Assembly: GCA_965198235.1 (NCBI GenBank)
Contig: OZ240248.1
Coordinates: 4,640,001-4,704,000 of the forward strand
Reading direction: 5' to 3'
DNA: 64,000 nt
Source of the DNA: Candidatus Poribacteria bacterium
Lineage (GTDB): Bacteria > Poribacteria > WGA-4E > WGA-3G
Below are positions 1 through 39,180 of this stretch, in pieces; positions within the stretch are counted from its first letter, which is position 1; each line of letters begins with the position of its first letter. A program made the position numbers and the translations under genes. A model generated the notes under the pieces. That model ran no database searches, had not been told where the DNA came from, and was given only the letters and a program-made list of their open reading frames with translations.

Positions 1-1
1 C

Positions 2-682
2 GAAAAAGGTATTGCTATACTCTGCGAATACGTCGAAACGGTTCGCGACATTATCGGTTATGAGATTCCGCTCTCGGTCGATCATTTTGGGCATATCGGT
101 ATCGAGGACTGTATCCGTATCGCGAGGGCATTGGAGAAATACAATCTCGCGTGGTTAGAGGATATGGTGCCGTGGCAGTATACCGACCAGTATGTACGTC
201 TCTCAAATTCATGCGCCACCCCTATTTGCACAGGCGAGGACATCTATTGCAAAGAGGACTTTATGCCGCTGTTTGAGAGCCGCGGGATTGCTGTGGCTCA
301 CCCAGATATCGCGACATCGGGTGGGATTTTGGAGACGAAAAAGATTGGTGATTTGGCGGAAGATCACGGCATTGCAATGGCACTCCACATGGCAGGTACC
401 CCTATTTGTGCAATGGCGAGCGTCCACTGTGCCGCAGCGACATCAAATTTCTTGGCGCTGGAAAATCACTCCGTTGACAATCCGTGGTGGGATGAAATGG
501 TGACAGGCTTACCGAATCCGATCATCCAAAACGGTTATATCAATGTGCCAGAGACACCGGGTTTAGGTATTGACCTCAACGAAGAGGTCGTTCGGGAGCA
601 TCTCCATCCAGAGGAGACAGATTACTTCGCACCGACAACAGAATGGGATTCCGAACGTTCGCATGATAGGTTGTGGAGTTAG
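2..682 (+). CDS. Mandelate racemase/muconate lactonizing (enolase superfamily) enzyme, 5'-truncated by the window edge
   Basis: Frame is open from base 2 (EKGIAILCEYVETVRDIIGYEIPLSVDH...). Metal ligands D..., WLED and TGED; C-terminal PETPGLGIDLNEE. Confidence 0.85.
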   Translation, partial: EKGIAILCEYVETVRDIIGYEIPLSVDHFGHIGIEDCIRIARALEKYNLAWLEDMVPWQYTDQYVRLSNSCATPICTGEDIYCKEDFMPLFESRGIAVAHPDIATSGGILETKKIGDLAEDHGIAMALHMAGTPICAMASVHCAAATSNFLALENHSVDNPWWDEMVTGLPNPIIQNGYINVPETPGLGIDLNEEVVREHLHPEETDYFAPTTEWDSERSHDRLWS

Positions 683-794
683 GGATTTTGTTTATAAGGG
701 CGGACCTCCATATCCGCCCTACCTCAAACAAGTTGCAGCGTCCGGCAGATCGTTGAAAACCTGGATGTTACAATAATGCCCCATATCCCATCTA

Positions 795-1568
795 CTACAT
801 TTTCAGATTCGCCCACATTGTTGTGAGCTTACCATCTGCTTCGATAGCAGCAAATTCTTCAACATGGAACAGCAAATTCTCCATGAAAAGTTTTGCCATA
901 TCTTTCGTATTGTCATCGTTACCTGCGATATAGTATTTATCAGGGGCAATTGCCATCATCAGGAACTTACCTTTCCCGAATTCTGCTTCCATAATGACAG
1001 GTTCCCCTAAACTTTCCATCAGCACGTCAAAGCCCTTTTGAGAAGCGATGACTTCCCAGACAGTAGGCCAGCCCTGATGTCCCCAACCTTCAAACGTTTT
1101 TTGATCCATACGGTTTGGTTCGTTAAAGAGCTGATGGTCGGCTTGCAGTATTTCAAAAATTGGACTATCACGGTCACTCCGAACACAACTCAATCCAGGC
1201 GGCAACCAATCCACATTCGCTTCGTTCTGATCAGCTTGGGTCGGTTCCCAGACGATACCACCATTTTCGACGAAATCCTGAATCACCTTTGCATTCTTGT
1301 CGAGATTTTGGTGCAATCCAGCATTGTTAGTCAGCATGCTACCAATTAAAAAAATTTTATTTTCTACTTTGAGAGGTAGTTTTCCACCTTCAAGTGCCTT
1401 TGTCAGATCATCGTACTCAACTTTGAACTCATCCAGGGTCTGACGCAACGCATCAACCTTTGTCCACTCGTCAGCAAAATCAATAACAGCAATTTTAGCA
1501 GCTTCTACAGCCATTACACTCAAAACGAGAGTCAAAATACAGAGCCATGCAAACAAACGGGGATACAT
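795..1568 (-). CDS. Secreted protein (class I GATase-like fold) with Poribacteria-type C-terminal motif
   Basis: Signal peptide ending AVEA; C-terminus AIEADGKLTTMWANLKM; AGGAG RBS. Confidence 0.65.
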   Translation of the reverse strand: MYPRLFAWLCILTLVLSVMAVEAAKIAVIDFADEWTKVDALRQTLDEFKVEYDDLTKALEGGKLPLKVENKIFLIGSMLTNNAGLHQNLDKNAKVIQDFVENGGIVWEPTQADQNEANVDWLPPGLSCVRSDRDSPIFEILQADHQLFNEPNRMDQKTFEGWGHQGWPTVWEVIASQKGFDVLMESLGEPVIMEAEFGKGKFLMMAIAPDKYYIAGNDDNTKDMAKLFMENLLFHVEEFAAIEADGKLTTMWANLKM

Positions 1569-1660
1569 AAGTTAATCTCCTTACGTGTAACACGTGTTTT
1601 CATGATTTGAAGGGTTTTTTGCTCAATTGGTCCTATCAGGCCTCACATAAACATTATAGC

Positions 1661-1785
1661 GTGATAGACCTCACCCTAAAGGACGAGGCTTCTGCTAAAT
1701 AATTGCAGAAGCTTTCGTGCGATCAACGACCGTTGCTTTCTTACGAAAGTCTTACACAGCCTACTGCAACAGACGCTACCCCGAC
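1661..1785 (-). ncRNA. TnpB-type omegaRNA (reRNA) scaffold; guide would be the flank from 1660 downward
   Basis: GCGTCTG...GTAAGAC-TTTCGTAAGAAAG...GTTGA...GCAGAAGCC-hairpin-TCAC. TGAT/ATCA pseudoknot potential. 5' boundary is approximate. Confidence 0.7.
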
Positions 1786-1977
1786 TGCGACACACAAAGT
1801 GTCCTTACGAAATTTATTTTGAGACGTATATTTCAAATGGGATTCAGCATGACCTGTCTTTCCCTACTAACGTCTGTAAGCTACTACTTCTTGACCTTTA
1901 CTTTAGAGCTTTACACTATGGGAGTTTGATCAATAGGCGAGTAACAGCCCTCCATAGCAACCTTACACTCTGAAAGT

Positions 1978-2006
1978 ATTATAGCAGATTCAACAACATA
2001 TTTCAA
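1978..2006 (-). promoter_or_regulatory. Sigma70 promoter inside the ORF-less element
   Basis: TTGAAA-N17-TATAAT with extended TGn (TGCTATAAT). Confidence 0.75.
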
Positions 2007-2268
2007 GGAAAAGCAGCGTCTACATCTCCATGCTAAAGCATGGAGTTTTGACGCTGAAGATTATGATAAATCCAAATTTGGAAAAAAACACACACACAGG
2101 TTGGCGCGCGAAACAGACAGCGATAAACGCCATCAAAAGCAGATGTAACTGCCTGCACTCCGGGTTGCGAATGGACTTCAAAGTCAAAAGCATTAAGTGT
2201 TTGAGTAGCATTGACTTACCATGTGTGATGGCTGAGCCACTTGCTATAGCCGGTCGGCGAAGGAACAT

Positions 2269-2835
2269 TCAAAAAGCGTTTGCCACAGCCACCAAATCCA
2301 AAATATTGACGATCCCATCACCGTTAACGTCTGGTGCATCTGTGCCGAATCCACTGGCAACTGCCACCAAATCCAGAATGTTGACAGTCCCATCACCGTT
2401 GACATCCGCAGGTGTTCCGAGCCGTTTGAGATAGATTTCACCGTCTAAATCCGCGACAGTGTGAAGCGTGTTGCGCAAACCACTTTCTACACCTGTTGCC
2501 TGCTCTGATAGACGAATTTCTTGCGGTTTCCCACTGCGATTATAAATTGCCCAACTGTTGGTGAATTCTCGGATAAAGAGTCCTTCTATATTGCGATAGC
2601 GTTGCGCTTTTTCGCCGATAGGTTGTCCAAGATCGGCACTCCAGAAGTCATAATAGTAATGTTGATGTTGATGGTCGTGGATTTCACCACGGGTATGTTC
2701 GGCTGAATGCCCTTTCCAAATTTCATAGACATGAGTATGTATTGTACTACCGATACCAGACACATACTGGACATAGCCATCGGAATGTGTCAGACTTAAA
2801 GTCGTAAACAGACGCATCCAACGGCGGTTCGTTGT
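2269..2835 (-). pseudogene. C-terminal remnant of a secreted protein with two dockerin-like repeats
   Basis: NRRWMRLFTTLSLTHSDGY...; DVNGDGTVNILDLVAVA and DVNGDGIVNILDLVAVA. No N-terminus or signal peptide. Confidence 0.65.
2279..2406 (-). repeat. Two dockerin/EF-hand-like coding repeats, period 75 nt
   Basis: GCCACCAAATCCA..AT.TTGAC..TCCCATCACCGTT.AC.TC occurs twice. Confidence 0.8.
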
Positions 2836-3388
2836 TAACACATCCCTCCATGGTGATGCCTGATCCAGAGTCGCGCACCTCAACAGACCAGAGGGTTTGA
2901 TCTTTCTCGCGAACGCTCAGTGAAATCTGCATTTCAGCGTCTGAGGTATCGGTGAAACGTATCAGGTCTGAAACGGAGCTGAGATCAAAACAACGAATGA
3001 GTTGATTGCTGAAAATTTCAGGAGCGTTGAGGACAGATTGCAGCTGGGCGCGTATCTTTTGAGGTAAATCTGAGAATTTGTACGGTAACGCATCTTTCCA
3101 TAGTTTTTCGAGAATTGCCCTAATTTCTTCCTCCTTGTCGTAAGCCGGCAACCCACGTCGTGTTAATCTTAAGTCCAAAACATCATGGTGAGACCAAGGA
3201 AATCGTGAGAAACCAGCAAAACTACTGTACAATGCATAGATGAGTGCTGCGAGATAGGTCTTACCGGTATTGCTCTCACCGACGAACACAGTCAGTGGGC
3301 GTAGATCTATCTCTGCCTTCTCTATCGGTCCGAAGTTTTGCACCTCGATGTGGACGTTGGTGGGCTGTATGTCTCTGACTTCGTTCAC
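2747..3388 (-). pseudogene. N-terminal half of an ABC/AAA_15-type ATPase (AbiEii/OLD-like), truncated
   Basis: IEVQNFGPI...LTVFVGESNTGKT (Walker A). No signature or Walker B; it runs out of frame into the dockerin remnant near 2835. Confidence 0.7.
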
Positions 3389-3516
3389 TGTTTTGTCTCC
3401 CGCGAGTGGTGGATTTAAGTCCAATTATACACGTATTTGTAGCCGACTGCAAGGAAAAGGAACTTTGATAACAGGGTCATTCAATTGTAGGTTTTTTGAG
3501 CGTTTTCGCCAAGGCA

Positions 3517-3540
3517 TCGCGAGCTGGAGCTCGCTCCTAC
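3517..3540 (-). repeat. GTAG-family REP-like palindrome (one of about 9 in the window)
   Basis: GTAGGAGCGAGCTCCAGCTCGCGA on the minus strand. Confidence 0.65.
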
Positions 3541-3652
3541 AGAAGAGGGAGTTTCAACGACCGACCGAAAATATGGAGAATTGAATGGCCCTGACTTTGA
3601 TAAGATATAACAGAAGGCGGCCACAAAACCTCGAAACAATCCATAATGATAC

Positions 3653-4780
3653 CTACGGAATAACGGCAACGTAAACCTGCGAATGCCCTGAAACATCTGA
3701 TGTATACACAACAGCTGTCTCATCAGGACTGAATGAAGGATGCGGGTGCGTCCACTGCGGTCCGTAGACCGTGTCCACCTTCATCTCCATCCAACTCAGG
3801 GATTTCTCTCGATCGCCTGCTTGCTGTGCTGCCGCCCAATCCTCAGCGAGTGCATACCGGTCGGTTTTCCACTGACTGCCGCTGGACGAACTCTGCGGAT
3901 AACAGATCGGCGTATGTTCGCCTGTCTCCACGTCAATAAGCCGCAAACCGATATCGGGATGGACGGTGTCGCACAATACTTTCGACCCGTCGCGATTGCT
4001 GGCAATATGCCACGCGTTGAAATCGGCAATCGTCTGCATCTGTAGGGTTTCCAGAGACATACGTCGAAGTGCATAGGGCCAATGTGTCACGATCAGTTCA
4101 TCCAACGCACCAAGGAAGGTTTCGTGGACGAGAAATTCGTTATTATCGTGCTGATAGAGCGATCGGTTTTCTGTGCCGTTCCGCTTAATAGTCCACATCC
4201 GAGGTGCCGGATCCCCGGAATACGCGATGAGATCAGGGTATTTCGGATGAAACTGGGGATGGATAATCGTCTGATCCGGGGAGGTGTAGATGACCTCGCC
4301 GCCGTTGCCATCGGTAGCGGTTACGGCGATGTGCGATTTGTCGTCGCGCTTCATCGCCGTTACGATATACCATTCGTCTGCACTGACGCTACACTCACCG
4401 AGGCTTCCACCGGGGAATTCTGCAAGTACACGTTCCTCAAGGGTATTGAGATGGATCGCTTTTATGGTGTCTGCTTGCGTGTAAAAGAGTTCAGTGCCGT
4501 CTTTGGAAATCACGCCGGAATAGCCGTGAACCTCATCGGCATCTGTCAACTGGACGATGTCGCCATTAGGGAATTCCAACTTGAAAAAATTCGGATTTCC
4601 TGAACGGTAGGAGGTGAAAATGAGATGTTCTTGGTCGGGGGTGAACGAAGATGTTAGGAAGTAGAGGTTATGGTTGATGGAAGTATCGTTTGTGAGTTGA
4701 TAGATGTGTGTGCCTGTTTGATTGTCTTGAAATTCGCGTAGTTCTGAAGGATGAACGGACGCTTTGGCGTAGTTTGGCAT
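3653..4780 (-). CDS. Oligogalacturonate lyase-family beta-propeller protein
   Basis: LYF..SFTPD, HPQF, HE, WH and HPHPSFSPD motifs. Confidence 0.75.
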   Translation of the reverse strand: MPNYAKASVHPSELREFQDNQTGTHIYQLTNDTSINHNLYFLTSSFTPDQEHLIFTSYRSGNPNFFKLEFPNGDIVQLTDADEVHGYSGVISKDGTELFYTQADTIKAIHLNTLEERVLAEFPGGSLGECSVSADEWYIVTAMKRDDKSHIAVTATDGNGGEVIYTSPDQTIIHPQFHPKYPDLIAYSGDPAPRMWTIKRNGTENRSLYQHDNNEFLVHETFLGALDELIVTHWPYALRRMSLETLQMQTIADFNAWHIASNRDGSKVLCDTVHPDIGLRLIDVETGEHTPICYPQSSSSGSQWKTDRYALAEDWAAAQQAGDREKSLSWMEMKVDTVYGPQWTHPHPSFSPDETAVVYTSDVSGHSQVYVAVIP

Positions 4781-4816
4781 ACTTTGCTCCTCGTAAGTCT
4801 GTTGATGAGATAAATT

Positions 4817-5650
4817 TTACGAATTGAATAGGTAGTTTAACAGATGTGCGCTTTCGCGGAAATCGGGGATGATGATGTCTGCACCGGCGCGAATAAGACG
4901 TTCCCGTTTGTCGGCATTCATATTGTACATATTGTCCTCAACAGACGCGACACCGACAGCGATTGCTCCCACTTCTTTGGCGTTTTCGATTTCCACATAG
5001 CCGTCTCCAACGATGAGCAGTTCGCTTCCGCTAAGGTTGAAATCCGTGATGATCTTCTGGATGACCATGGCTTTGGAAAACTTCTTATATTCCCGCAGTG
5101 CGCCGAAAATGCCACCGTTAAGGTATTCCGCAACACCGAGGAGTGCCGCTTCGTTTTTGACGAATTCGACGTCTGTACCGCTGGCGAGATAGCAGCTTAT
5201 CCCTATCTCGCGCAGGCTTTGAAGAAATTCGAGGGACATCGGCACGCGAAGTGGATCAGCAGACAGCGTTCCCGCCGCGAGTCCAGCAATCCGTTCCTTA
5301 ACAACGGGCAGCAGTCGGCGATTATATTCATCTTTATACGCGAGTGGATCCTTCGGTGTCCCGCCACGTTTCTCGATCTCCTCGCTTAACTGGATCATCT
5401 GATAGATAGTTTGCTTACCGGTCAGCCTGTCCACAAATTCAACAACAATTGCCTCAAGTTGTTCCTGCGTTTCTGTGGTATCTGTTTCCGTTTGAAGGCA
5501 TTCAACCATCATCGGGACCATTACATTCTGCCAACCGTCTCGGATGAGGGAGATTGTCCCGTCAAAATCGAAGACAACATGACGAATATTTCCGGTTTGG
5601 ATTTCACGATGGATTTCAATTGCGGTATTATCCAAAAAAATGTTCTGCAT
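4817..5650 (-). CDS. HAD-family hydrolase
   Basis: FDFDGT, ASGT and VGDG motifs. Confidence 0.85.
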   Translation of the reverse strand: MQNIFLDNTAIEIHREIQTGNIRHVVFDFDGTISLIRDGWQNVMVPMMVECLQTETDTTETQEQLEAIVVEFVDRLTGKQTIYQMIQLSEEIEKRGGTPKDPLAYKDEYNRRLLPVVKERIAGLAAGTLSADPLRVPMSLEFLQSLREIGISCYLASGTDVEFVKNEAALLGVAEYLNGGIFGALREYKKFSKAMVIQKIITDFNLSGSELLIVGDGYVEIENAKEVGAIAVGVASVEDNMYNMNADKRERLIRAGADIIIPDFRESAHLLNYLFNS

Positions 5651-5785
5651 ATTTTTAACTATGACGTTTTGCTATGATCTGACCGTTGGCCAGGTCATCG
5701 TTTTCTGATTAAGTCTGTAGGGGCACGTAAAAGACTACATGCCATGCGGGAGTCGCTTACAGTCTCAGAGATATTCAATTCTCCC

Positions 5786-5845
5786 GTAGGAGGGATCTCC
5801 AAATCCCGACTTCGTCTTCTGTAGGGGCGATCTCCTGATCGCGAC
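5786..5845 (+). repeat. Tandem GTAG REP-like palindromes
   Basis: GTAGGAGGGATCTCCAAATCCCGAC and GTAGGGGCGATCTCCTGATCGCGAC. Confidence 0.6.
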
Positions 5846-6128
5846 ATTCTGCACAAAACGGGTAGAGAACCGAAAATTGAATGGCTCTGTTATAGCCTAA
5901 AAAGGCATTGATTTCCCTTCTCTAATCTGATAGTATAATAGCGTTCAGGGTGTTAAGCAAGCATTTTTAATTATACCTTGCGGTTCGGTGAGATGGGTTC
6001 GGAGCATAAATGTGCTTCTCCGTAGACCCGCTCTCCATTACATTACGAGCTACGCGCCTGAGTTTATCAGAGCAGTTTGAAAGGCGTATCGCTCTTAAAA
6101 TTGCCCAAACTTTAATAAAATAAAACTG

Positions 6129-7004
6129 ATGAACGAAAAAGAGATACTTAAAAAAATCCAACGCATTGAAATATTTACCAATCGCCTTGTTAACACTGTC
6201 TTTGCCGGTGAGTATGAAAGCGTCTTCAAAGGACAGGGGATTACCTTCGATGAGGTTCGGGAATATCAGGTAGGTGATGAAATCCGGACGATCGATTGGA
6301 ATGTCACCGCACGCATGGGGCAAGCCTACATCAAGAAGTACGTGGAAGAGCGTGAACTCGTCATGATGTTGGTTGTGGATGTGAGTGCTTCGACCAGTTT
6401 TGGCAGTATCGCTGAGACGAAGGCGGAAATTGCTGCCGAGATTGCAGCACTCCTCGCCTTTTCTGCCATCAAAAACAACGACAAAGTTGGGCTTATCTGT
6501 TTTACGGACACCGTTGAACATTTCGTCGCGCCGCGGAAAGGGAAAAGACACGTTTTACGCGTCGTTCGGGATATTCTCCATTTTCAGCCGAAACAGCCCG
6601 GGACGAACATTGAAACGGCATTGGCGTTCGTCGATCGGGTGCTCAAGCCGCACAGTGTTGTGTTTCTCATCTCAGATTTCAAAGATACGGGGTATGAAAA
6701 GCAGTTACGCTTGAGCAGTAAACAGCACTCACTTATTGCTATTACCTTACAGGACAGGCGCGAGGTGGAATTGCCGGATGTCGGACTCATAGAACTGGAG
6801 GACGCGGAGAGCGGAGAGACGGTTATTGTCGATACACGTTCCGAGGAAGCACGGCAACTCTATACGGAACTTAATCAGCGTGTAGATGCGGAACGCCGAC
6901 AGGTTTTCCGGGCAAATCAAGTGGATTCTATTCATATCAGAACAGATGAACCGTATGTGAAACCGCTTATCCAATTTTTCCGTCAGCGTACCGCCCGACG
7001 CTAA
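6129..7004 (+). CDS. DUF58 (MoxR-associated VWA-like) protein
   Basis: FDEVREYQVGDEIRTIDWNVTAR, VDVSAS and ISDF motifs. Confidence 0.9.
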   Translation: MNEKEILKKIQRIEIFTNRLVNTVFAGEYESVFKGQGITFDEVREYQVGDEIRTIDWNVTARMGQAYIKKYVEERELVMMLVVDVSASTSFGSIAETKAEIAAEIAALLAFSAIKNNDKVGLICFTDTVEHFVAPRKGKRHVLRVVRDILHFQPKQPGTNIETALAFVDRVLKPHSVVFLISDFKDTGYEKQLRLSSKQHSLIAITLQDRREVELPDVGLIELEDAESGETVIVDTRSEEARQLYTELNQRVDAERRQVFRANQVDSIHIRTDEPYVKPLIQFFRQRTARR

Positions 7005-7024
7005 AATAAAATTCTTGTAGGCTT

Positions 7025-7795
7025 ATGAGAAGATTAGAGGTAAAGAATTTAACACAAACCTTTGCTCAAAAAGGCGACCCATTACGAGTCCTGGAGGGTT
7101 TAAACCTCGCTGTTGACGATGGGCAGTTTGTCGCTTTGTTGGGTCCCTCCGGGTGTGGCAAAAGCACGCTTTTTAATATCGTTTCTGGGCTTCTTGTACC
7201 AGACACCGGAGAAATTTACCTCGACAGTGAGCGTATCTACGGCAACACAGGGGATTTCGCCTACATGCAACAGAAGGACCTCCTTTTACCGTGGCGGACG
7301 GTCCTTAGGAACGTACTCGTCGGACCAGAAATTCACAACGAACCGCTTGACACCGCGAAGGTAGAGGCACAACGGCGTTTAGCACAACTCGGATTGAGCG
7401 GATTTGAAAATAGTTATCCGATGCAGCTTTCGGGAGGGATGCGGCAACGCGTCGCGCTCGTCCGGACACTCCTGTTTCGGAAGAGAATTCTGCTATTAGA
7501 TGAACCCTTCGGCGCACTGGATGCAATGACTCGGACCGTCATGCAGTCTATTCTACTCGACATCTGGTCAGAGAGCCGACAGACTGTGCTCCTCATCACC
7601 CACGACGTTGAGGAAGCTCTTATACTTGCTGATAAAATCTACGTGCTGACAGCCAGACCCGCAACGCTAAAAGCAGAAGTCCCTATTCCTCTGTCTCGTC
7701 CGCGGAGCATCACGGATGTCTCCCTCATTCGCCTGAAAAAAGAACTTTTGGCGTTATTACAGGTCGAAATGTCACAGGTTTTCGATGTAGGTTAA
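7025..7795 (+). CDS. ABC transporter ATP-binding protein (NitT/TauB-like)
   Basis: GPSGCGKST, LSGGMRQR, LLLDEPFGALD and ITHD motifs. Confidence 0.92.
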   Translation: MRRLEVKNLTQTFAQKGDPLRVLEGLNLAVDDGQFVALLGPSGCGKSTLFNIVSGLLVPDTGEIYLDSERIYGNTGDFAYMQQKDLLLPWRTVLRNVLVGPEIHNEPLDTAKVEAQRRLAQLGLSGFENSYPMQLSGGMRQRVALVRTLLFRKRILLLDEPFGALDAMTRTVMQSILLDIWSESRQTVLLITHDVEEALILADKIYVLTARPATLKAEVPIPLSRPRSITDVSLIRLKKELLALLQVEMSQVFDVG

Positions 7796-7886
7796 CTCTG
7801 TTTAGGGTCCGAATCCTTTGTCAATGTTCTCTAAAACGAATGTGATGGGCGGTTCATCAAAGTTTACGGATTGGAAACCCCGTGTT

Positions 7887-8912
7887 TTAGTGCGGGGAGG
7901 AAAATCCGCTCCTGTAGTTAAAGTTAAGGCGTGTTAGCACCTTAAAATCCGTAGTTTTTGCTTTTTGAGTGAGGCGTTTACCTTCCAAGGAATATAACGC
8001 TATACCGTGTTTACCGAAGCCACTGATACGTGTAAGACCATATTTGATATGTCTAACCAAAGTATTTTTTACCAATCCATTCCATGTTGTTCCTCCATAA
8101 CGCGGGCGTTTCCCGCCTTTCTGTGGGTTCTGTCTGTGGAGTTCACGTCTCCGTATCGGGATTGGCGATATACAGAAGATTGAAGTATTGTCGACAATAG
8201 GTTTCCCGCCGATTGTCTGATATGCCAAACACCAACTATCGACACAATGTGCGTCAAAATGTTCTGATAGTTTGTTAGACGACTTCTTGAGTCCTAATCC
8301 GTCTCGTATCTCTTTTGTTTCCCACCCTTGAAGTGTCCGTAGTTGCCAACGCTTCTGAACTTCAGAGTAGAACCACTGCTTACCGACTTCCAGAGGACTA
8401 AAGGATTGATTCCACTTTTTCGCATGTTCTATAGTCCGTGCTTTAATATCTTCAACACATACATGCGTGATTGGATACAGTTTGGATAACCAGTCTAATA
8501 TACGCAACTTCCAATCCCATCTTGCGCGTGTGCCTGCGGGGATACGCTCTCTGTTCGTAAGACGATTCGTCCTATTTTTTCGGTTCGGACACTTCCGTGA
8601 ACGCCGTCCTCTACGCAACTCACGTCTCTTTTCAACTTTCTTACTGACTTTGCTATGGGCATCCGCTTGCACATTCAGATAAGTGTGTGATTCACTCTTA
8701 ACCGTAAAGCCTTCTTTCTTACTGCCAGGGTCTATGCCTACAGCAATCTCTTGCTTGTAATAGCGTTCTGCCACTTCTTTGTTAAGCCTGATACAGAAAA
8801 TACCATTATCCCAATAAGGCGTGGCTTCTCCGCTTTTAATCAAATGCCTCGCTACAGGTGGAATCGTAGGCATTAACTGTTCGCCTTCTTTACTCTTTAC
8901 TGATACAAACAT
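7887..8912 (-). CDS. isrB: IsrB OMEGA RNA-guided nickase (RRXRR/PLMP, split RuvC, no HNH), 341 aa
   Basis: QLMPT, RuvC-I GIDPGSK, Arg-rich bridge helix RRELRRGRRSR, RuvC-II CVED, RuvC-III HCVD. No room for an HNH domain. ATG at 8912 follows GGGAG. Confidence 0.88.
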   Translation of the reverse strand: MFVSVKSKEGEQLMPTIPPVARHLIKSGEATPYWDNGIFCIRLNKEVAERYYKQEIAVGIDPGSKKEGFTVKSESHTYLNVQADAHSKVSKKVEKRRELRRGRRSRKCPNRKNRTNRLTNRERIPAGTRARWDWKLRILDWLSKLYPITHVCVEDIKARTIEHAKKWNQSFSPLEVGKQWFYSEVQKRWQLRTLQGWETKEIRDGLGLKKSSNKLSEHFDAHCVDSWCLAYQTIGGKPIVDNTSIFCISPIPIRRRELHRQNPQKGGKRPRYGGTTWNGLVKNTLVRHIKYGLTRISGFGKHGIALYSLEGKRLTQKAKTTDFKVLTRLNFNYRSGFSSPH

Positions 8913-38073: not shown

Positions 38074-38979
38074 ATGATCACCAGCAAAGGATGCATGCAG
38101 TCCACAACGGAACAGCAAAATCTGACTTCTGTTGACATCGATCTGAAGTCAACATCAGAAATCGTCCGGATTTTTCACGAAGAAGATCGGAAAGCGATTA
38201 AGGCAGTAGAAGCAGAATCCGAAGCGATTGCACACGCTATTGAATTATGCGTTGCTGCATTTCGCGCCGGTGGCAGACTGTTTTATGTCGGCGCGGGTAC
38301 GAGTGGTAGACTTGGGGTGTTGGATGCCTCCGAATGTCCACCGACTTTTAGTACGTCCCCAGAGATGGTCCAAGGGATAATTGCTGGTGGGGACGTTGCC
38401 TTACGTCGCTCGGTGGAAGGTGAAGAGGATAAGCTTGAAAGTGGTGCGCTCGCTGTCCGGGAGCGACAACTCACATCACAAGATGTGCTCGTCGGCATCG
38501 CAAGCAGTGGACGGACGCCTTATGTTATAGGGGCTTTGAGGGAGGCGCGTGCTATTGGTGCGACAACAATATTTCTCTGCTGCGTTCCACCTCCTGAGCA
38601 ATTAAAAGGATGGGTGACGCATTTCATCACACCCATTGTCGGACCGGAGATTATCACCGGCTCAACCCGATTGAAAGCGGGAACAGCCACAAAGTTGGTT
38701 CTGAACATGTTGACGACTGCTTCTATGATCAAACTGGGTAAGGTCTACAATAATCTGATGGTAGACGTACACGCCTCTAACACGAAACTGGTCGCGCGGA
38801 GCATCCGAATTGTCCAAGCCGTCACTGGGGTTGATGCTGTGGTGGCTGAGGAAGCGTTAGCACGGGCAGGCGGTCGTGCTAAACTCGCTATTGTAATGCT
38901 CGCGAAAGGACTGAATCCGACGGACGCGAATACACTATTAGATGAACATGAGGGATTTCTAAGGCAAATTCTTCAGTAA
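38074..38979 (+). CDS. murQ: N-acetylmuramic acid 6-phosphate etherase
   Basis: GAGTSGRLGVLDASECPPTF, GSTRLKAGTATK and NLMVD motifs. Confidence 0.95.
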   Translation: MITSKGCMQSTTEQQNLTSVDIDLKSTSEIVRIFHEEDRKAIKAVEAESEAIAHAIELCVAAFRAGGRLFYVGAGTSGRLGVLDASECPPTFSTSPEMVQGIIAGGDVALRRSVEGEEDKLESGALAVRERQLTSQDVLVGIASSGRTPYVIGALREARAIGATTIFLCCVPPPEQLKGWVTHFITPIVGPEIITGSTRLKAGTATKLVLNMLTTASMIKLGKVYNNLMVDVHASNTKLVARSIRIVQAVTGVDAVVAEEALARAGGRAKLAIVMLAKGLNPTDANTLLDEHEGFLRQILQ

Positions 38980-39180
38980 CTCCACGCTAAAGCGTGGAGA
39001 TTGTAGAATATCCCGAGCCAACGGGGGACCCTGCAACGCGAGATGCTGAATACACGCACATATCGCGGACCTTGTGGTGGCACACAACAAGACGGTACTA
39101 GGTGCTCCCCAAGCCTGTATCCTCTCTGGTTCCGTGATGTGGATGGGGCAACATACAACCCGAAAGGGGATTTACTAACT
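38972..39180 (+). ncRNA. omegaRNA (HEARO-like) of IsrB element 2
   Basis: TTCAGTA pairs with TGCTGAA; CTCCACGC-TAAA-GCGTGGAG end hairpin; conserved blocks shared with 8913-9122. Confidence 0.85.

What the first reader, a model, noticed from the sequence alone, without database searches (positions are those of the whole stretch)
1641..2069. ORF-less 405-bp element expressing an orphan TnpB-type guide RNA
Seen: both IS200/IS605 end hairpins with matching guide/cleavage tetramers (AAAA/TTAT, GAAG/TCAC), an internal TTGAAA-N17-TATAAT promoter, a TnpB-type omegaRNA ending in TCAC, and no transposase or nuclease ORF. Known: TnpB uses the flank 3' of the right end as guide, and the TAM precedes the left end. 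Inference: an RNA-only parasite that borrows TnpA and TnpB in trans, with guide GCTATAATGTTTATGTGAGG and TAM (T)TTAT.
Basis: partly seen in the sequence, partly recalled or inferred. Interest (0 to 1): 0.85.

Follow-up and report, generated by a model that had tools for sequence, protein, structure and literature searches.

The report
Guide-RNA-only mini transposon in Poribacteria
A 405-bp gene-less IS200/IS605-type mobile element in a sponge-symbiont genome carries its own promoter and a shortened copy of the guide-RNA scaffold used by TnpB nucleases encoded elsewhere in the same genome; stand-alone guide-RNA elements of this sort are already described, so this is a well-supported new example, not a new kind.

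Summary
On the minus strand, window 1661-2065 is a 405-bp ORF-less element. It is inserted directly 3' of TTAT and ends in TCTATCAC. It has IS200/IS605-type subterminal hairpins, the tetramers AAAA and GAAG 5' of them, and a TTGAAA-N17-TATAAT promoter. Two same-genus genomes hold the exact empty site ...GGATTTAT|GCTATAATG.... The genome holds two further full copies, and 20 of 61 genus genomes hold copies. In 30 extracted copies, 30 start after TTAT and there are 25 distinct right flanks.

A covariance model built only from 14 tnpB-linked 3' ends of this genome hits window 1807-1661 at 60.6 bits, E 1.4e-14. The whole ~311-nt predicted RNA covaries. Sponge RNA-library contigs bridge the scaffold/guide junction.

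This is a non-autonomous element (PATE) with a stand-alone TnpB guide RNA that depends on TnpA and TnpB in trans. Binding, cleavage and strand-specific expression are not shown.

The concept is in print: passages read in PMC10055086 and PMC10691335. Specific to this case are a scaffold about 38 nt shorter and a covarying 5' RNA domain found only in these elements. Novelty: new member of a known kind. Interest is moderate to low.

The parts
2066..2069 (-). TTAT: the insertion target and left cleavage tetramer, and the inferred TnpB TAM
   Evidence: 30 of 30 related copies start directly after TTAT. The empty sites in G004 and G018 read ...GGATTTAT|GCTATAATG. 403-aa-family tnpB elements have the same left flank in 6 of 7 shown, and TTAC in 1.
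1661..2065 (-). 405-bp ORF-less IS200/IS605-type mini element (PATE)
   Evidence: The boundaries are fixed by the 3-copy alignment, the empty alleles and 30 copies from relatives. No ORF is conserved.
2026..2054 (-). Left-end structure: outer stem start GCGTC, tetramer AAAA (2049-2046), hairpin CTCCATGC-TTTA-GCATGGAG (2045-2026)
   Evidence: ssDNA fold z -5.6. A left-end HMM built from mini copies hits the left ends of tnpB elements, including three that carry tnpA.
1978..2006 (-). Sigma-70-type promoter TTGAAA-N17-TATAAT with TG upstream; predicted transcription start near 1971
   Evidence: 11 of 12 match. Found in 25 of 25 copies with a variable spacer sequence. The start site is inferred, not measured.
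1808..1971 (-). 5' RNA domain (~165 nt) with covarying stems, including a possible pseudoknot; function unknown
   Evidence: Helices 1-7. An HMM of this domain hits only the three subfamily-A copies in the own genome. No Rfam match.
1661..1807 (-). omegaRNA-type scaffold (147 nt), a shortened homologue of the 185-nt 3' end of the 403-aa tnpB family
   Evidence: Model R1, built only from tnpB-linked 3' ends, scores 60.6 bits, E 1.4e-14, over the full model. The reciprocal mini-only HMM hits 14 tnpB 3' ends, 10 of them at about 4e-9. Covariation is in helices 8-15.
1661..1713 (-). Right-end module: stem GCTTCTGC/GCAGAAGC (1713-1689), tetramer GAAG (1692-1689), imperfect hairpin (1688-1669), TCTATCAC with cleavage tetramer TCAC (1664-1661)
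   Evidence: 25 of 30 copies end in TCTATCAC. Both stems show compensatory changes (helices 14 and 15).
1641..1660 (-). Inferred guide, GCTATAATGTTTATGTGAGG (flank 3' of the right end)
   Evidence: Its position follows the TnpB rule (established knowledge). RNA-library contigs span 1493-1786 across this junction. No second TTAT-flanked match in the genome.
795..1568 (-). Context: co-oriented downstream ORF (257 aa); its start lies 92 nt after the right end
   Evidence: The RNA-library contig 1493-1786 runs from the scaffold into this ORF.
2091..2110 (-). Context: terminator-like hairpin plus T run of the upstream gene, just 5' of the insertion site

Best explanation
Window 1661-2065 (minus strand) is a non-autonomous IS200/IS605-family element (a PATE). 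It encodes no protein. It carries a promoter and a stand-alone TnpB-type guide RNA.

Steps supported here:
- It inserts as a unit directly 3' of TTAT with no target duplication, and it has spread to many sites in Candidatus Poribacteria genomes.
- Its last 147 nt are a shortened homologue of the omegaRNA-encoding 3' end of the 403-aa tnpB elements of the same genome.
- The predicted RNA is constrained by base pairing.

Steps inferred:
- A Y1 TnpA encoded elsewhere recognises the two subterminal hairpins. It uses the cis tetramers AAAA and GAAG to cut after TTAT and TCAC, and so mobilises the element.
- The internal promoter transcribes about 311 nt plus flank.
- TnpB of the 403-aa family binds the 3' scaffold and trims the RNA to scaffold plus a guide of about 16-20 nt (GCTATAATGTTTATGT...).
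- When TnpA excises the element, the rejoined site TTAT|GCTATAATG... becomes TAM plus target. TnpB cuts it, and recombination with a sister copy restores the element.
- While the element is in place, the target follows TCAC rather than TTAT and is spared.
For: Mobility:
- There are 3 full copies in the genome with unrelated flanks.
- The empty site is exact in G004 and G018.
- 20 of 61 same-genus genomes have a match at E<=1e-20.
- 30 of 30 extracted copies begin after TTAT, 25 of 30 end TCTATCAC, and there are 25 distinct right flanks.

Scaffold homology:
- R1 was built from 14 tnpB-linked 3' ends only. It hits window 1807-1661 at 60.6 bits, E 1.4e-14. The two other copies score 56.3 and 54.3. 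The next unrelated window hit has E 0.54.
- The reciprocal HMM from mini copies hits 14 tnpB 3' ends: 10 at about 4e-9, the other 4 at 5.8e-7 to 5.3e-6, two of those over only the last ~60 positions.

Structure:
- 68 pairs are 87.3% paired, against 36-47% when slid.
- 38 pairs carry double changes, against a shuffle mean of 21 (0 of 500) and 6-10 when slid.
- Several pairs are G-U in nearly all copies (18 of 18, 16 of 18, 15 of 18). This fits this strand as RNA.

Promoter: present in 25 of 25 copies.

Partners:
- There are 35 TnpB-domain hits over the Pfam cut-off and 6 Y1 TnpA hits in the genome.
- The 403-aa TnpB matches ISDra2 TnpB structures at E 2.6e-44. It keeps the GFDFG, FFEDLN and DRDENAALN motifs.
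- It carries PF07282 and PF01385.
- tnpB elements share the TTAT flank and the left-end hairpin.
- Full-score R1 hits occur in 19 of the 20 genomes that hold the mini element.

RNA: contigs from RNA libraries of one study span 1493-1786 in X1 and X2. In X1, contigs also cover 1765-1868 and 1839-1983 with 0 differences.

Guides: they match only their own flank.
Against: - No direct evidence shows that TnpB binds or uses this RNA.
- The scaffold lacks one hairpin of the tnpB-linked version and has another cut down (147 nt against 185 nt). This might abolish binding.
- The RNA evidence consists of assembled contigs. They give no strand, no ends and no level, and DNA carry-over is not excluded. 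The low-depth upstream flank is covered too.
- None of the 403-aa-family elements in this genome carries tnpA. The nearest tnpA-bearing element has a different left tetramer pair, AAAT with a TTAA-type flank.
- Full-score R1 hits also occur in 24 of 41 genomes without the mini element, and one genome (G069) has the mini without such a hit. The genomes are kin, so no test was made.
- Part of the conservation at the extreme ends is needed for TnpA alone.
Confidence: 0.7

Rival explanations
1. It is a TnpA-only PATE. On this view, the element is a deletion derivative mobilised by TnpA, and its omegaRNA-like region is a relic that TnpB no longer uses.
For: - The scaffold is shortened relative to the tnpB-linked version: one hairpin is absent and one is truncated.
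- The extreme ends must be kept for TnpA anyway.
- No binding data exist.
Against: - Copies only 70-87% identical to the window copy keep the scaffold stems through compensatory changes well inside the element, beyond the terminal hairpin (helices 8-13).
- A promoter reading into the scaffold is kept in 25 of 25 copies.
- 19 of 20 genomes with the element also hold the full tnpB-linked scaffold type.
Confidence: 0.15
2. It is a mobile promoter or leader. On this view, the element's main effect is to transcribe the adjacent host gene, and the structured RNA is a leader rather than a guide.
For: - An RNA-library contig runs from the scaffold into the downstream ORF (1493-1786).
- The insertion separates T and G of a TGnTATAAT-like motif upstream of that ORF.
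- 2 of the 3 own-genome copies have a co-oriented ORF just downstream.
Against: - The third copy faces a convergent ORF.
- There are 25 different flanks.
- The 3' part is homologous to tnpB-linked scaffolds, which a leader function does not explain.
Confidence: 0.06
3. It is a TnpB decoy or competitor. On this view, the RNA binds TnpB but mainly titrates it away from full-length elements, or redirects it, rather than protecting its own site.
For: - It has its own strong consensus promoter.
- The scaffold is homologous to the tnpB-linked one.
- The extra 5' domain has no counterpart in tnpB elements.
Against: - The guide lies in the canonical position, and the flank matches only its own site.
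- Nothing observed requires more than the homing model.
Confidence: 0.05

Closest known systems
Stand-alone omegaRNAs of OMEGA systems (Altae-Tran et al. 2021, as summarised in the introduction of PMC10691335; passages read)
   Same: Both are mobilised guide-RNA loci that lack an effector and a transposase. Both sit in genomes that also hold effector-containing loci. The published ones are stated to work in trans with compatible effectors.
   Different: - The 2021 paper itself was not read here.
- This case is TnpB-type, in Poribacteria.
- It has a defined internal promoter, a scaffold about 38 nt shorter than the cognate tnpB-linked one, and an extra covarying 5' domain.
- No functional test has been done.
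PATE-like elements of Geobacillus stearothermophilus IS605-family transposons (Meers et al., preprint PMC10055086; passages read)
   Same: Both are protein-less elements with IS200/IS605 left and right ends. [quoted passage not shown]
   Different: - The host phylum and sequence family differ.
- Their Extended Data and supplements were not seen, so the anatomy could not be compared in detail.
ISDra2 TnpB and its omegaRNA/reRNA (PDB 8exa, 8bf8, 8h1j; Karvelis et al. PMC8612924, search listing only)
   Same: - The partner 403-aa TnpB aligns to ISDra2 TnpB at E 2.6e-44 over residues 21-372.
- The guide lies 3' of the right end.
- The scaffold overlaps the 3' end of tnpB in the full-length elements.
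   Different: - The TAM here is TTAT. The ISDra2 TAM TTGAT is recalled, not checked.
- Here the scaffold stands without the gene.
- No sequence comparison with the ISDra2 omegaRNA was made.
IS608 TnpA end recognition (guide/cleavage tetramers AAAG/TTAC and GAAT/TCAA; recalled from Barabas et al. 2008 and He et al. 2015, not read here)
   Same: A tetramer lies directly 5' of each hairpin foot, and position 4 covaries with the cleavage tetramer. Here the pairs are AAAA/TTAT and GAAG/TCAC. A tnpA-bearing element in this genome has AAAT with a TTAA-type flank.
   Different: - The tetramers differ.
- The pairing rule is applied from memory, and no TnpA assay was done.
Haloarchaeal PATEs (Haloquadratum walsbyi, PMC3119063; search listing only)
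   Same: They are the original description of palindrome-associated, protein-less IS200/IS605 derivatives.
   Different: They are archaeal. Whether they hold guide RNAs was not checked here.

Membership tests
IS200/IS605-family non-autonomous element (PATE) | Subterminal imperfect hairpins at both ends on the same strand, with no terminal inverted repeats | tested here: met
   The left-end hairpin is at 2045-2026 and the right-end hairpin at 1688-1669. Both have TTTA(G) loops on the minus strand. Both stems show compensatory changes in relatives (helix 15; alignment).
IS200/IS605-family non-autonomous element (PATE) | Insertion 3' of a fixed tetranucleotide without target-site duplication | tested here: met
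   The empty sites read ...TTTAT|GCTATAATG in G004 and G018. 30 of 30 copies follow TTAT.
IS200/IS605-family non-autonomous element (PATE) | Cis guide tetramers 5' of the hairpins that match the cleavage tetramers | tested here: met
   AAAA pairs with TTAT and GAAG with TCAC. A tnpA-bearing element has AAAT with a TTAA-type flank. The pairing rule itself is recalled, not tested.
IS200/IS605-family non-autonomous element (PATE) | No protein-coding gene | tested here: met
   No ORF is conserved. 4 of 25 copies have none of 40 aa or more.
IS200/IS605-family non-autonomous element (PATE) | A Y1 (HUH) TnpA in the same genome with compatible ends | tested here: inconclusive
   There are 6 PF01797 hits. 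Three lie in IS605-like elements whose left ends are hit by the mini left-end HMM at E 3e-7 to 8e-5. Compatibility is inferred from similarity only.
IS200/IS605-family non-autonomous element (PATE) | Mobility | tested here: met
   There are 25 distinct right flanks among 30 copies, and filled and empty alleles both exist. This is comparative evidence, not experimental.
TnpB omegaRNA | The scaffold abuts the right end, and the guide is the flanking DNA | tested here: met
   The R1 match ends exactly at 1661, the last element base.
TnpB omegaRNA | Sequence and structure homology to the scaffold encoded at the 3' end of a tnpB gene | tested here: met
   R1 scores 60.6 bits, E 1.4e-14, over the full model. 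The reciprocal HMM hits 14 tnpB 3' ends, 10 at about 4e-9 and 4 at 5.8e-7 to 5.3e-6. The match lacks one hairpin and shortens another.
TnpB omegaRNA | Same TAM as the cognate tnpB elements | tested here: met
   TTAT flanks the left end of 6 of the 7 403/404-aa-family elements shown. One has TTAC.
TnpB omegaRNA | Transcribed, with scaffold and guide on one RNA | tested here: inconclusive
   RNA-library contigs span 1493-1786 in 2 runs of one study. They give no strand or ends, and DNA carry-over is not excluded.
TnpB omegaRNA | Binds TnpB and directs TAM-dependent DNA cleavage | not testable with these tools
   This needs biochemistry or an interference assay.
Any Rfam family | A match to a curated covariance model | tested here: not met
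   cmscan of window 1-8000 at E<=10 gave 4 weak matches, none within 1641-2069.

The most novel reading that the evidence does not exclude
The element may be an adapted guide-RNA-only selfish lineage rather than a decaying IS remnant. Three things point that way:
- It keeps its own consensus promoter.
- It carries a naturally minimised TnpB scaffold (147 nt against 185 nt).
- It carries a ~165-nt covarying 5' RNA domain with a possible pseudoknot. That domain has no detectable counterpart in any tnpB element or in the other mini family of this genome.

This 5' domain could be a new functional RNA module, for example for stability, processing, or loading onto or competing for TnpB.

Relatives also hold minis whose core matches this family but whose right end is of another tnpB family's type (AGTATGTC). 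This hints at exchange of end modules.
Probability: 0.3. Interest if true: 0.55.

Novelty: new member of a known kind. Interest (0 to 1): 0.35.

Why it matters
- It is a clean, boundary-defined natural case of a protein-less element that carries only a TnpB guide RNA. It comes with empty alleles, many independent insertions and identifiable partner nucleases in the same genome.
- It adds a sponge-symbiont phylum (Candidatus Poribacteria) to the hosts of such elements.
- The naturally shortened scaffold shows which stems of this omegaRNA type evolution tolerates losing. This is a lead for trimming TnpB guide RNAs in genome editing.
- The extra conserved 5' domain is unexplained and could be tested.
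- It does not change the current picture of IS200/IS605 biology, in which stand-alone omegaRNAs and omegaRNA-bearing PATEs are already described.

Tried and rejected
- **Rfam.** No family matches the element at E<=10.
- **Origin of the 5' domain from the tnpB 5' leader.** An HMM of the tnpB 5' leaders extracted gave no hit at E<=10 on 25 mini copies. The idea is dropped.
- **A shared 5' chassis between the two mini families.** An HMM of the 5' domain hits only the three subfamily-A copies in the own genome at E<=0.01. It does not hit C1:2520612-2520977 or C1:400852-401227. The idea is dropped.
- **Second-site targets.** No TTAT-flanked match with 3 or fewer mismatches that would suggest a domesticated guide was found. 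The guides of 4 copies match only their own flank well.
- **A parent full-length element.** The left-end-only match in G010 (L098) is a left end plus promoter fragment followed by a small ORF and a recJ-like ORF. It is not a tnpB element.
- **Depth figures from laid contigs.** The element and the downstream gene read roughly 100-2700, and the upstream flank reads about 3-9. These figures are per contig, sum over copies and organisms, and cannot rank expression. Parts without cover are not used either.
- **Loose ends in the same call.** They resemble the other mini copies and a tnpB-linked right end. I take this only as a sign that those sequences are also in the libraries.
- **Promoter count in the single sequence.** 1 was found against 1.2 expected in shuffles. 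It is not significant alone, so the weight rests on conservation.
- **RNAalifold.** It missed several stems seen by eye. I drew the structure by hand from the window copy, so the counts lean towards it. Helix 5 reaches only 56.5% paired in that MAFFT alignment.
- **Possible pseudoknot** between the G(G/A)UAG loop and CUAUC at the 3' end. One side never varies, so it cannot be tested.
- **Supplements** of the papers are closed. The Extended Data of Meers et al. and the 2021 Science paper may hold closer parallels.
- **Not used:** Complex prediction, structure prediction and the large protein searches. The question is about DNA and RNA.

Full report
**What is there.** Read on the minus strand, the sequence runs in this order:
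- ...GGATTTAT, with TTAT at 2069-2066.
- The element, from C at 2065 to TCTATCAC ending at 1661.
- The flank GCTATAATGTTTATGTGAGG (1660-1641).

The left end has GCGTC, then AAAA (2049-2046), then the hairpin CTCCATGC-TTTA-GCATGGAG (2045-2026). As single-stranded DNA it folds at -12.3 kcal/mol, z -5.6.

The promoter TTGAAA-N17-TATAAT (2006-1978, 11 of 12 match, TG upstream) is the only promoter-like site in 1400-2300. The lenient scan expects 1.2 per shuffle, so the single match is not significant on its own.

The right end has the stem GCTTCTGC/GCAGAAGC (1713-1689). GAAG (1692-1689) lies directly 5' of the imperfect hairpin CCTCGTCC-TTTA-GGGTGAGG (1688-1669), and TCTATCAC follows.

**It is a mobile unit.**
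- BLAST of the stretch against the own genome (5.17 Mb, 2 contigs) gave three full-length places at 100, 78 and 77% identity.
- Their alignment loses all similarity exactly at TTAT| and |after TCAC.
- nhmmer added a right-end fragment or diverged copy at C1:1567560-1567677. It also added a second, more distant ORF-less family at C1:2520612-2520977 and C1:400852-401227.
- A search with the element plus both flanks in 41 related genomes found two same-genus genomes (G004, G018) in which the flanks abut.
- The junction there reads ...CAAATTTGGATTTAT|GCTATAATGT....
- With the element alone, 20 of 61 same-genus genomes, the own one included, have a match at E<=1e-20, with 1 to 8 places each.
- From 32 nhmmer hits in the fetched loci I dropped L104 (a second fetch of L002) and L098 (left end only). 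In the remaining 30 copies, 30 start right after TTAT, 25 end TCTATCAC and there are 25 distinct right flanks.
- An exact core pattern scanned over one genome for each of 185,579 species found 16 stretches. All are in Candidatus Poribacteria or uncultured Poribacteria MAGs.
- The runs that hold the stretch are sponge metagenomes and metatranscriptomes.

**No gene.** ORFs of 40 aa or more are absent from 4 of 25 copies. In the rest they differ in frame, strand and length.

**Partners in the genome.**
- PF07282 (the TnpB zinc-ribbon domain) has 36 matches at E<=0.01, 35 of them over the cut-off. PF01797 (Y1 transposase) has 6.
- Fourteen tnpB loci form one 3'-end type: 10 with ORFs of 403-404 aa, one of 391 aa, two broken and one at a contig end.
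- That 3'-end type reads ...GCTTCTGC-loop-GCAGAAGCC-hairpin-GGTCTATCAC. It has the same stem, the same GAAG and the same terminal octamer as the mini element.
- Their left ends carry the same kind of hairpin after AAAA. They follow TTAT in 6 of the 7 shown.
- One such protein (P0001) matches ISDra2 TnpB structures at E 2.6e-44. It keeps the GFDFG, FFEDLN and DRDENAALN motifs and two CxxC pairs. It has PF07282 and PF01385.
- No element of this type carries tnpA here. Three IS605-like elements with tnpA have left ends that an HMM of the mini left end hits at E 3e-7 to 8e-5.
- One of these has AAAT and a TTAA-type flank. Another has AAAA and TTAT.

**Is the 3' part a TnpB guide-RNA scaffold?**
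- I built covariance model R1 from the last 185 nt of the 14 tnpB-linked ends only.
- With filters off, it hits window 1807-1661 at 60.6 bits, E 1.4e-14, over the whole model.
- The two other copies score 56.3 and 54.3, and the fragment scores 35.2.
- An 18.7-bit, E 0.0018 match lies on the opposite strand of the same region (window 1637-1757). The next unrelated window hit has E 0.54.
- The alignment keeps the stem-loop with the GGGGUAGC loop, the GUAAGAC motif and its enclosing stem, the GCUUCUGC stem and the terminal hairpin. It shortens one hairpin and lacks another, giving 147 nt against 185 nt.
- The reverse test agrees. An HMM built from mini copies only hits all 14 tnpB 3' ends. Ten hits are at about 4e-9 over about 157 nt. 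The other four are at 5.8e-7 to 5.3e-6, and two of those cover only the last ~60 positions.
- In the genus, full-score R1 hits occur in 19 of the 20 genomes with the mini element. The exception is G069. They also occur in 24 of the 41 genomes without it. The genomes are kin, so I give counts only.

**RNA structure.**
- Eighteen copies less than 95% identical to each other were aligned from the predicted start to the right end.
- RNAalifold gave 50 pairs, 25 of them with double changes.
- A hand-drawn structure of 68 pairs in 15 helices is 87.3% paired, against 36-47% when slid.
- It has 38 pairs with changes on both sides. The shuffle mean is 21 (0 of 500), and slid versions give 6-10.
- I derived the structure from the window copy, which favours it somewhat.
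- Pairs that are G-U in 15-18 of 18 copies fit this strand, not its complement.
- Covariation extends through a ~165-nt 5' domain (1971-1808), including a possible pseudoknot. In the own genome, this domain is hit only in the three subfamily-A copies. It has no Rfam match. It is not detectably related to the tnpB 5' leaders.

**Expression.**
- Four RNA-library runs from 2 studies were laid, as contigs only.
- Contigs of 294 nt span 1493-1786 in X1 and X2, with 4 and 1 differences. They bridge the scaffold/guide junction and reach the downstream ORF.
- In X1, contigs cover 1765-1868 and 1839-1983 with no differences.
- This is consistent with transcription through scaffold and guide. It gives no strand, ends or level, and it does not exclude DNA.

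**Mechanism.**
- Shown: precise TTAT-targeted insertion, spread, homology of the scaffold to tnpB-linked scaffolds, structural constraint on the RNA, a conserved promoter (25 of 25), and presence of intact TnpB and TnpA genes.
- Inferred from established IS200/IS605 and TnpB biology: TnpA in trans excises and inserts the single-stranded element. TnpB in trans loads the scaffold with the flank as guide. After excision, the rejoined TTAT|GCTATAATG... site is cut and repaired from a sister copy. The filled site is protected because TCAC, not TTAT, precedes the target.
- The guides of four copies have no other good TTAT-flanked match in the genome. This fits homing rather than a domesticated function.

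**Comparison with what is known.**
[quoted passage not shown] - A search for PATEs with TnpB, guide RNA and trans from 2023 on returned 3 papers, of which 1 was listed, the same preprint.
- The IStron preprint mentions a PATE with IStron ends.
- The kind is therefore known.
- What is particular here is the own promoter, the naturally shortened scaffold, the private 5' domain and the Poribacteria host.

**Verdict.** It is a new member of a known kind, with interest 0.35.

Noticed in passing
own genome, e.g. L043:2587-2682 (-), upstream of the tnpB start; not in the window: The tnpB elements of this genome share a ~95-nt leader between a consensus promoter and the ATG. By eye, it has nested stems that covary between copies: GGCAGACA...TGTCTGCC, an inner GTNACC...GGTNAC, and the 5' end pairing with the stretch just before the start codon. 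It may control tnpB translation.
   Followed up: partly
own genome C1:2520612-2520977 (+) and C1:400852-401227 (+): This is a second ORF-less mini family with the same layout: left-end hairpin, then TTGACA-N17-TAGAAT. Its right end finishes in CTATGAC. The last ~100 nt are 88% identical to the 3' end of a 367-aa tnpB element (C1:2530990-2532093). At least two TnpB lineages therefore have guide-only satellites here.
   Followed up: partly
L099, L100, L109 (same-genus genomes G042, G050, G005): These minis of 433-441 bp match the core of this family (query 191-352) but end in AGTATGTC. That is the right-end type of the 410-aa tnpB elements that carry tnpA in the own genome. It is possible exchange of end modules.
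   Followed up: no
window 1652-1669 and the empty sites in L068 and L075: In the empty allele, the insertion point lies inside TATGCTATAAT, a TGnTATAAT-like extended -10 upstream of the 257-aa ORF 795-1568. Insertion replaces the T before G with ...TCAC. The element's own promoter reads towards that ORF.
   Followed up: no
L098:1497-1602 (-), genome G010: This is a solitary left end plus promoter, 93% identical to the window copy over 102 nt. It breaks off a few bases after the predicted start. A small ORF of about 80 aa and a recJ-like ORF follow.
   Followed up: partly
own genome C1:1567560-1567677 (+), C1:3435089-3435166 (-), C1:572826-572928 (-): These are scaffold-only fragments or diverged copies of the mini's 3' part, with no recognisable left end of this family.
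   Followed up: no
window 7822-7921 (+): A weak match to Rfam HgcC (22.3 bits against a gathering score of 50, E 0.077) with a GC-rich terminal hairpin. It is probably chance.
   Followed up: no
window 38965-39007: A left-end-like hairpin matches the mini HMM and R1 only weakly (E 3-4 and 7.6 bits). It is possibly a solitary end.
   Followed up: no
window 2269-2883 (-): The upstream ORF ends in two tandem DVNGDG(T/I)VNILDLVAVA repeats. By recall these are dockerin-like, and they were not searched.
   Followed up: no
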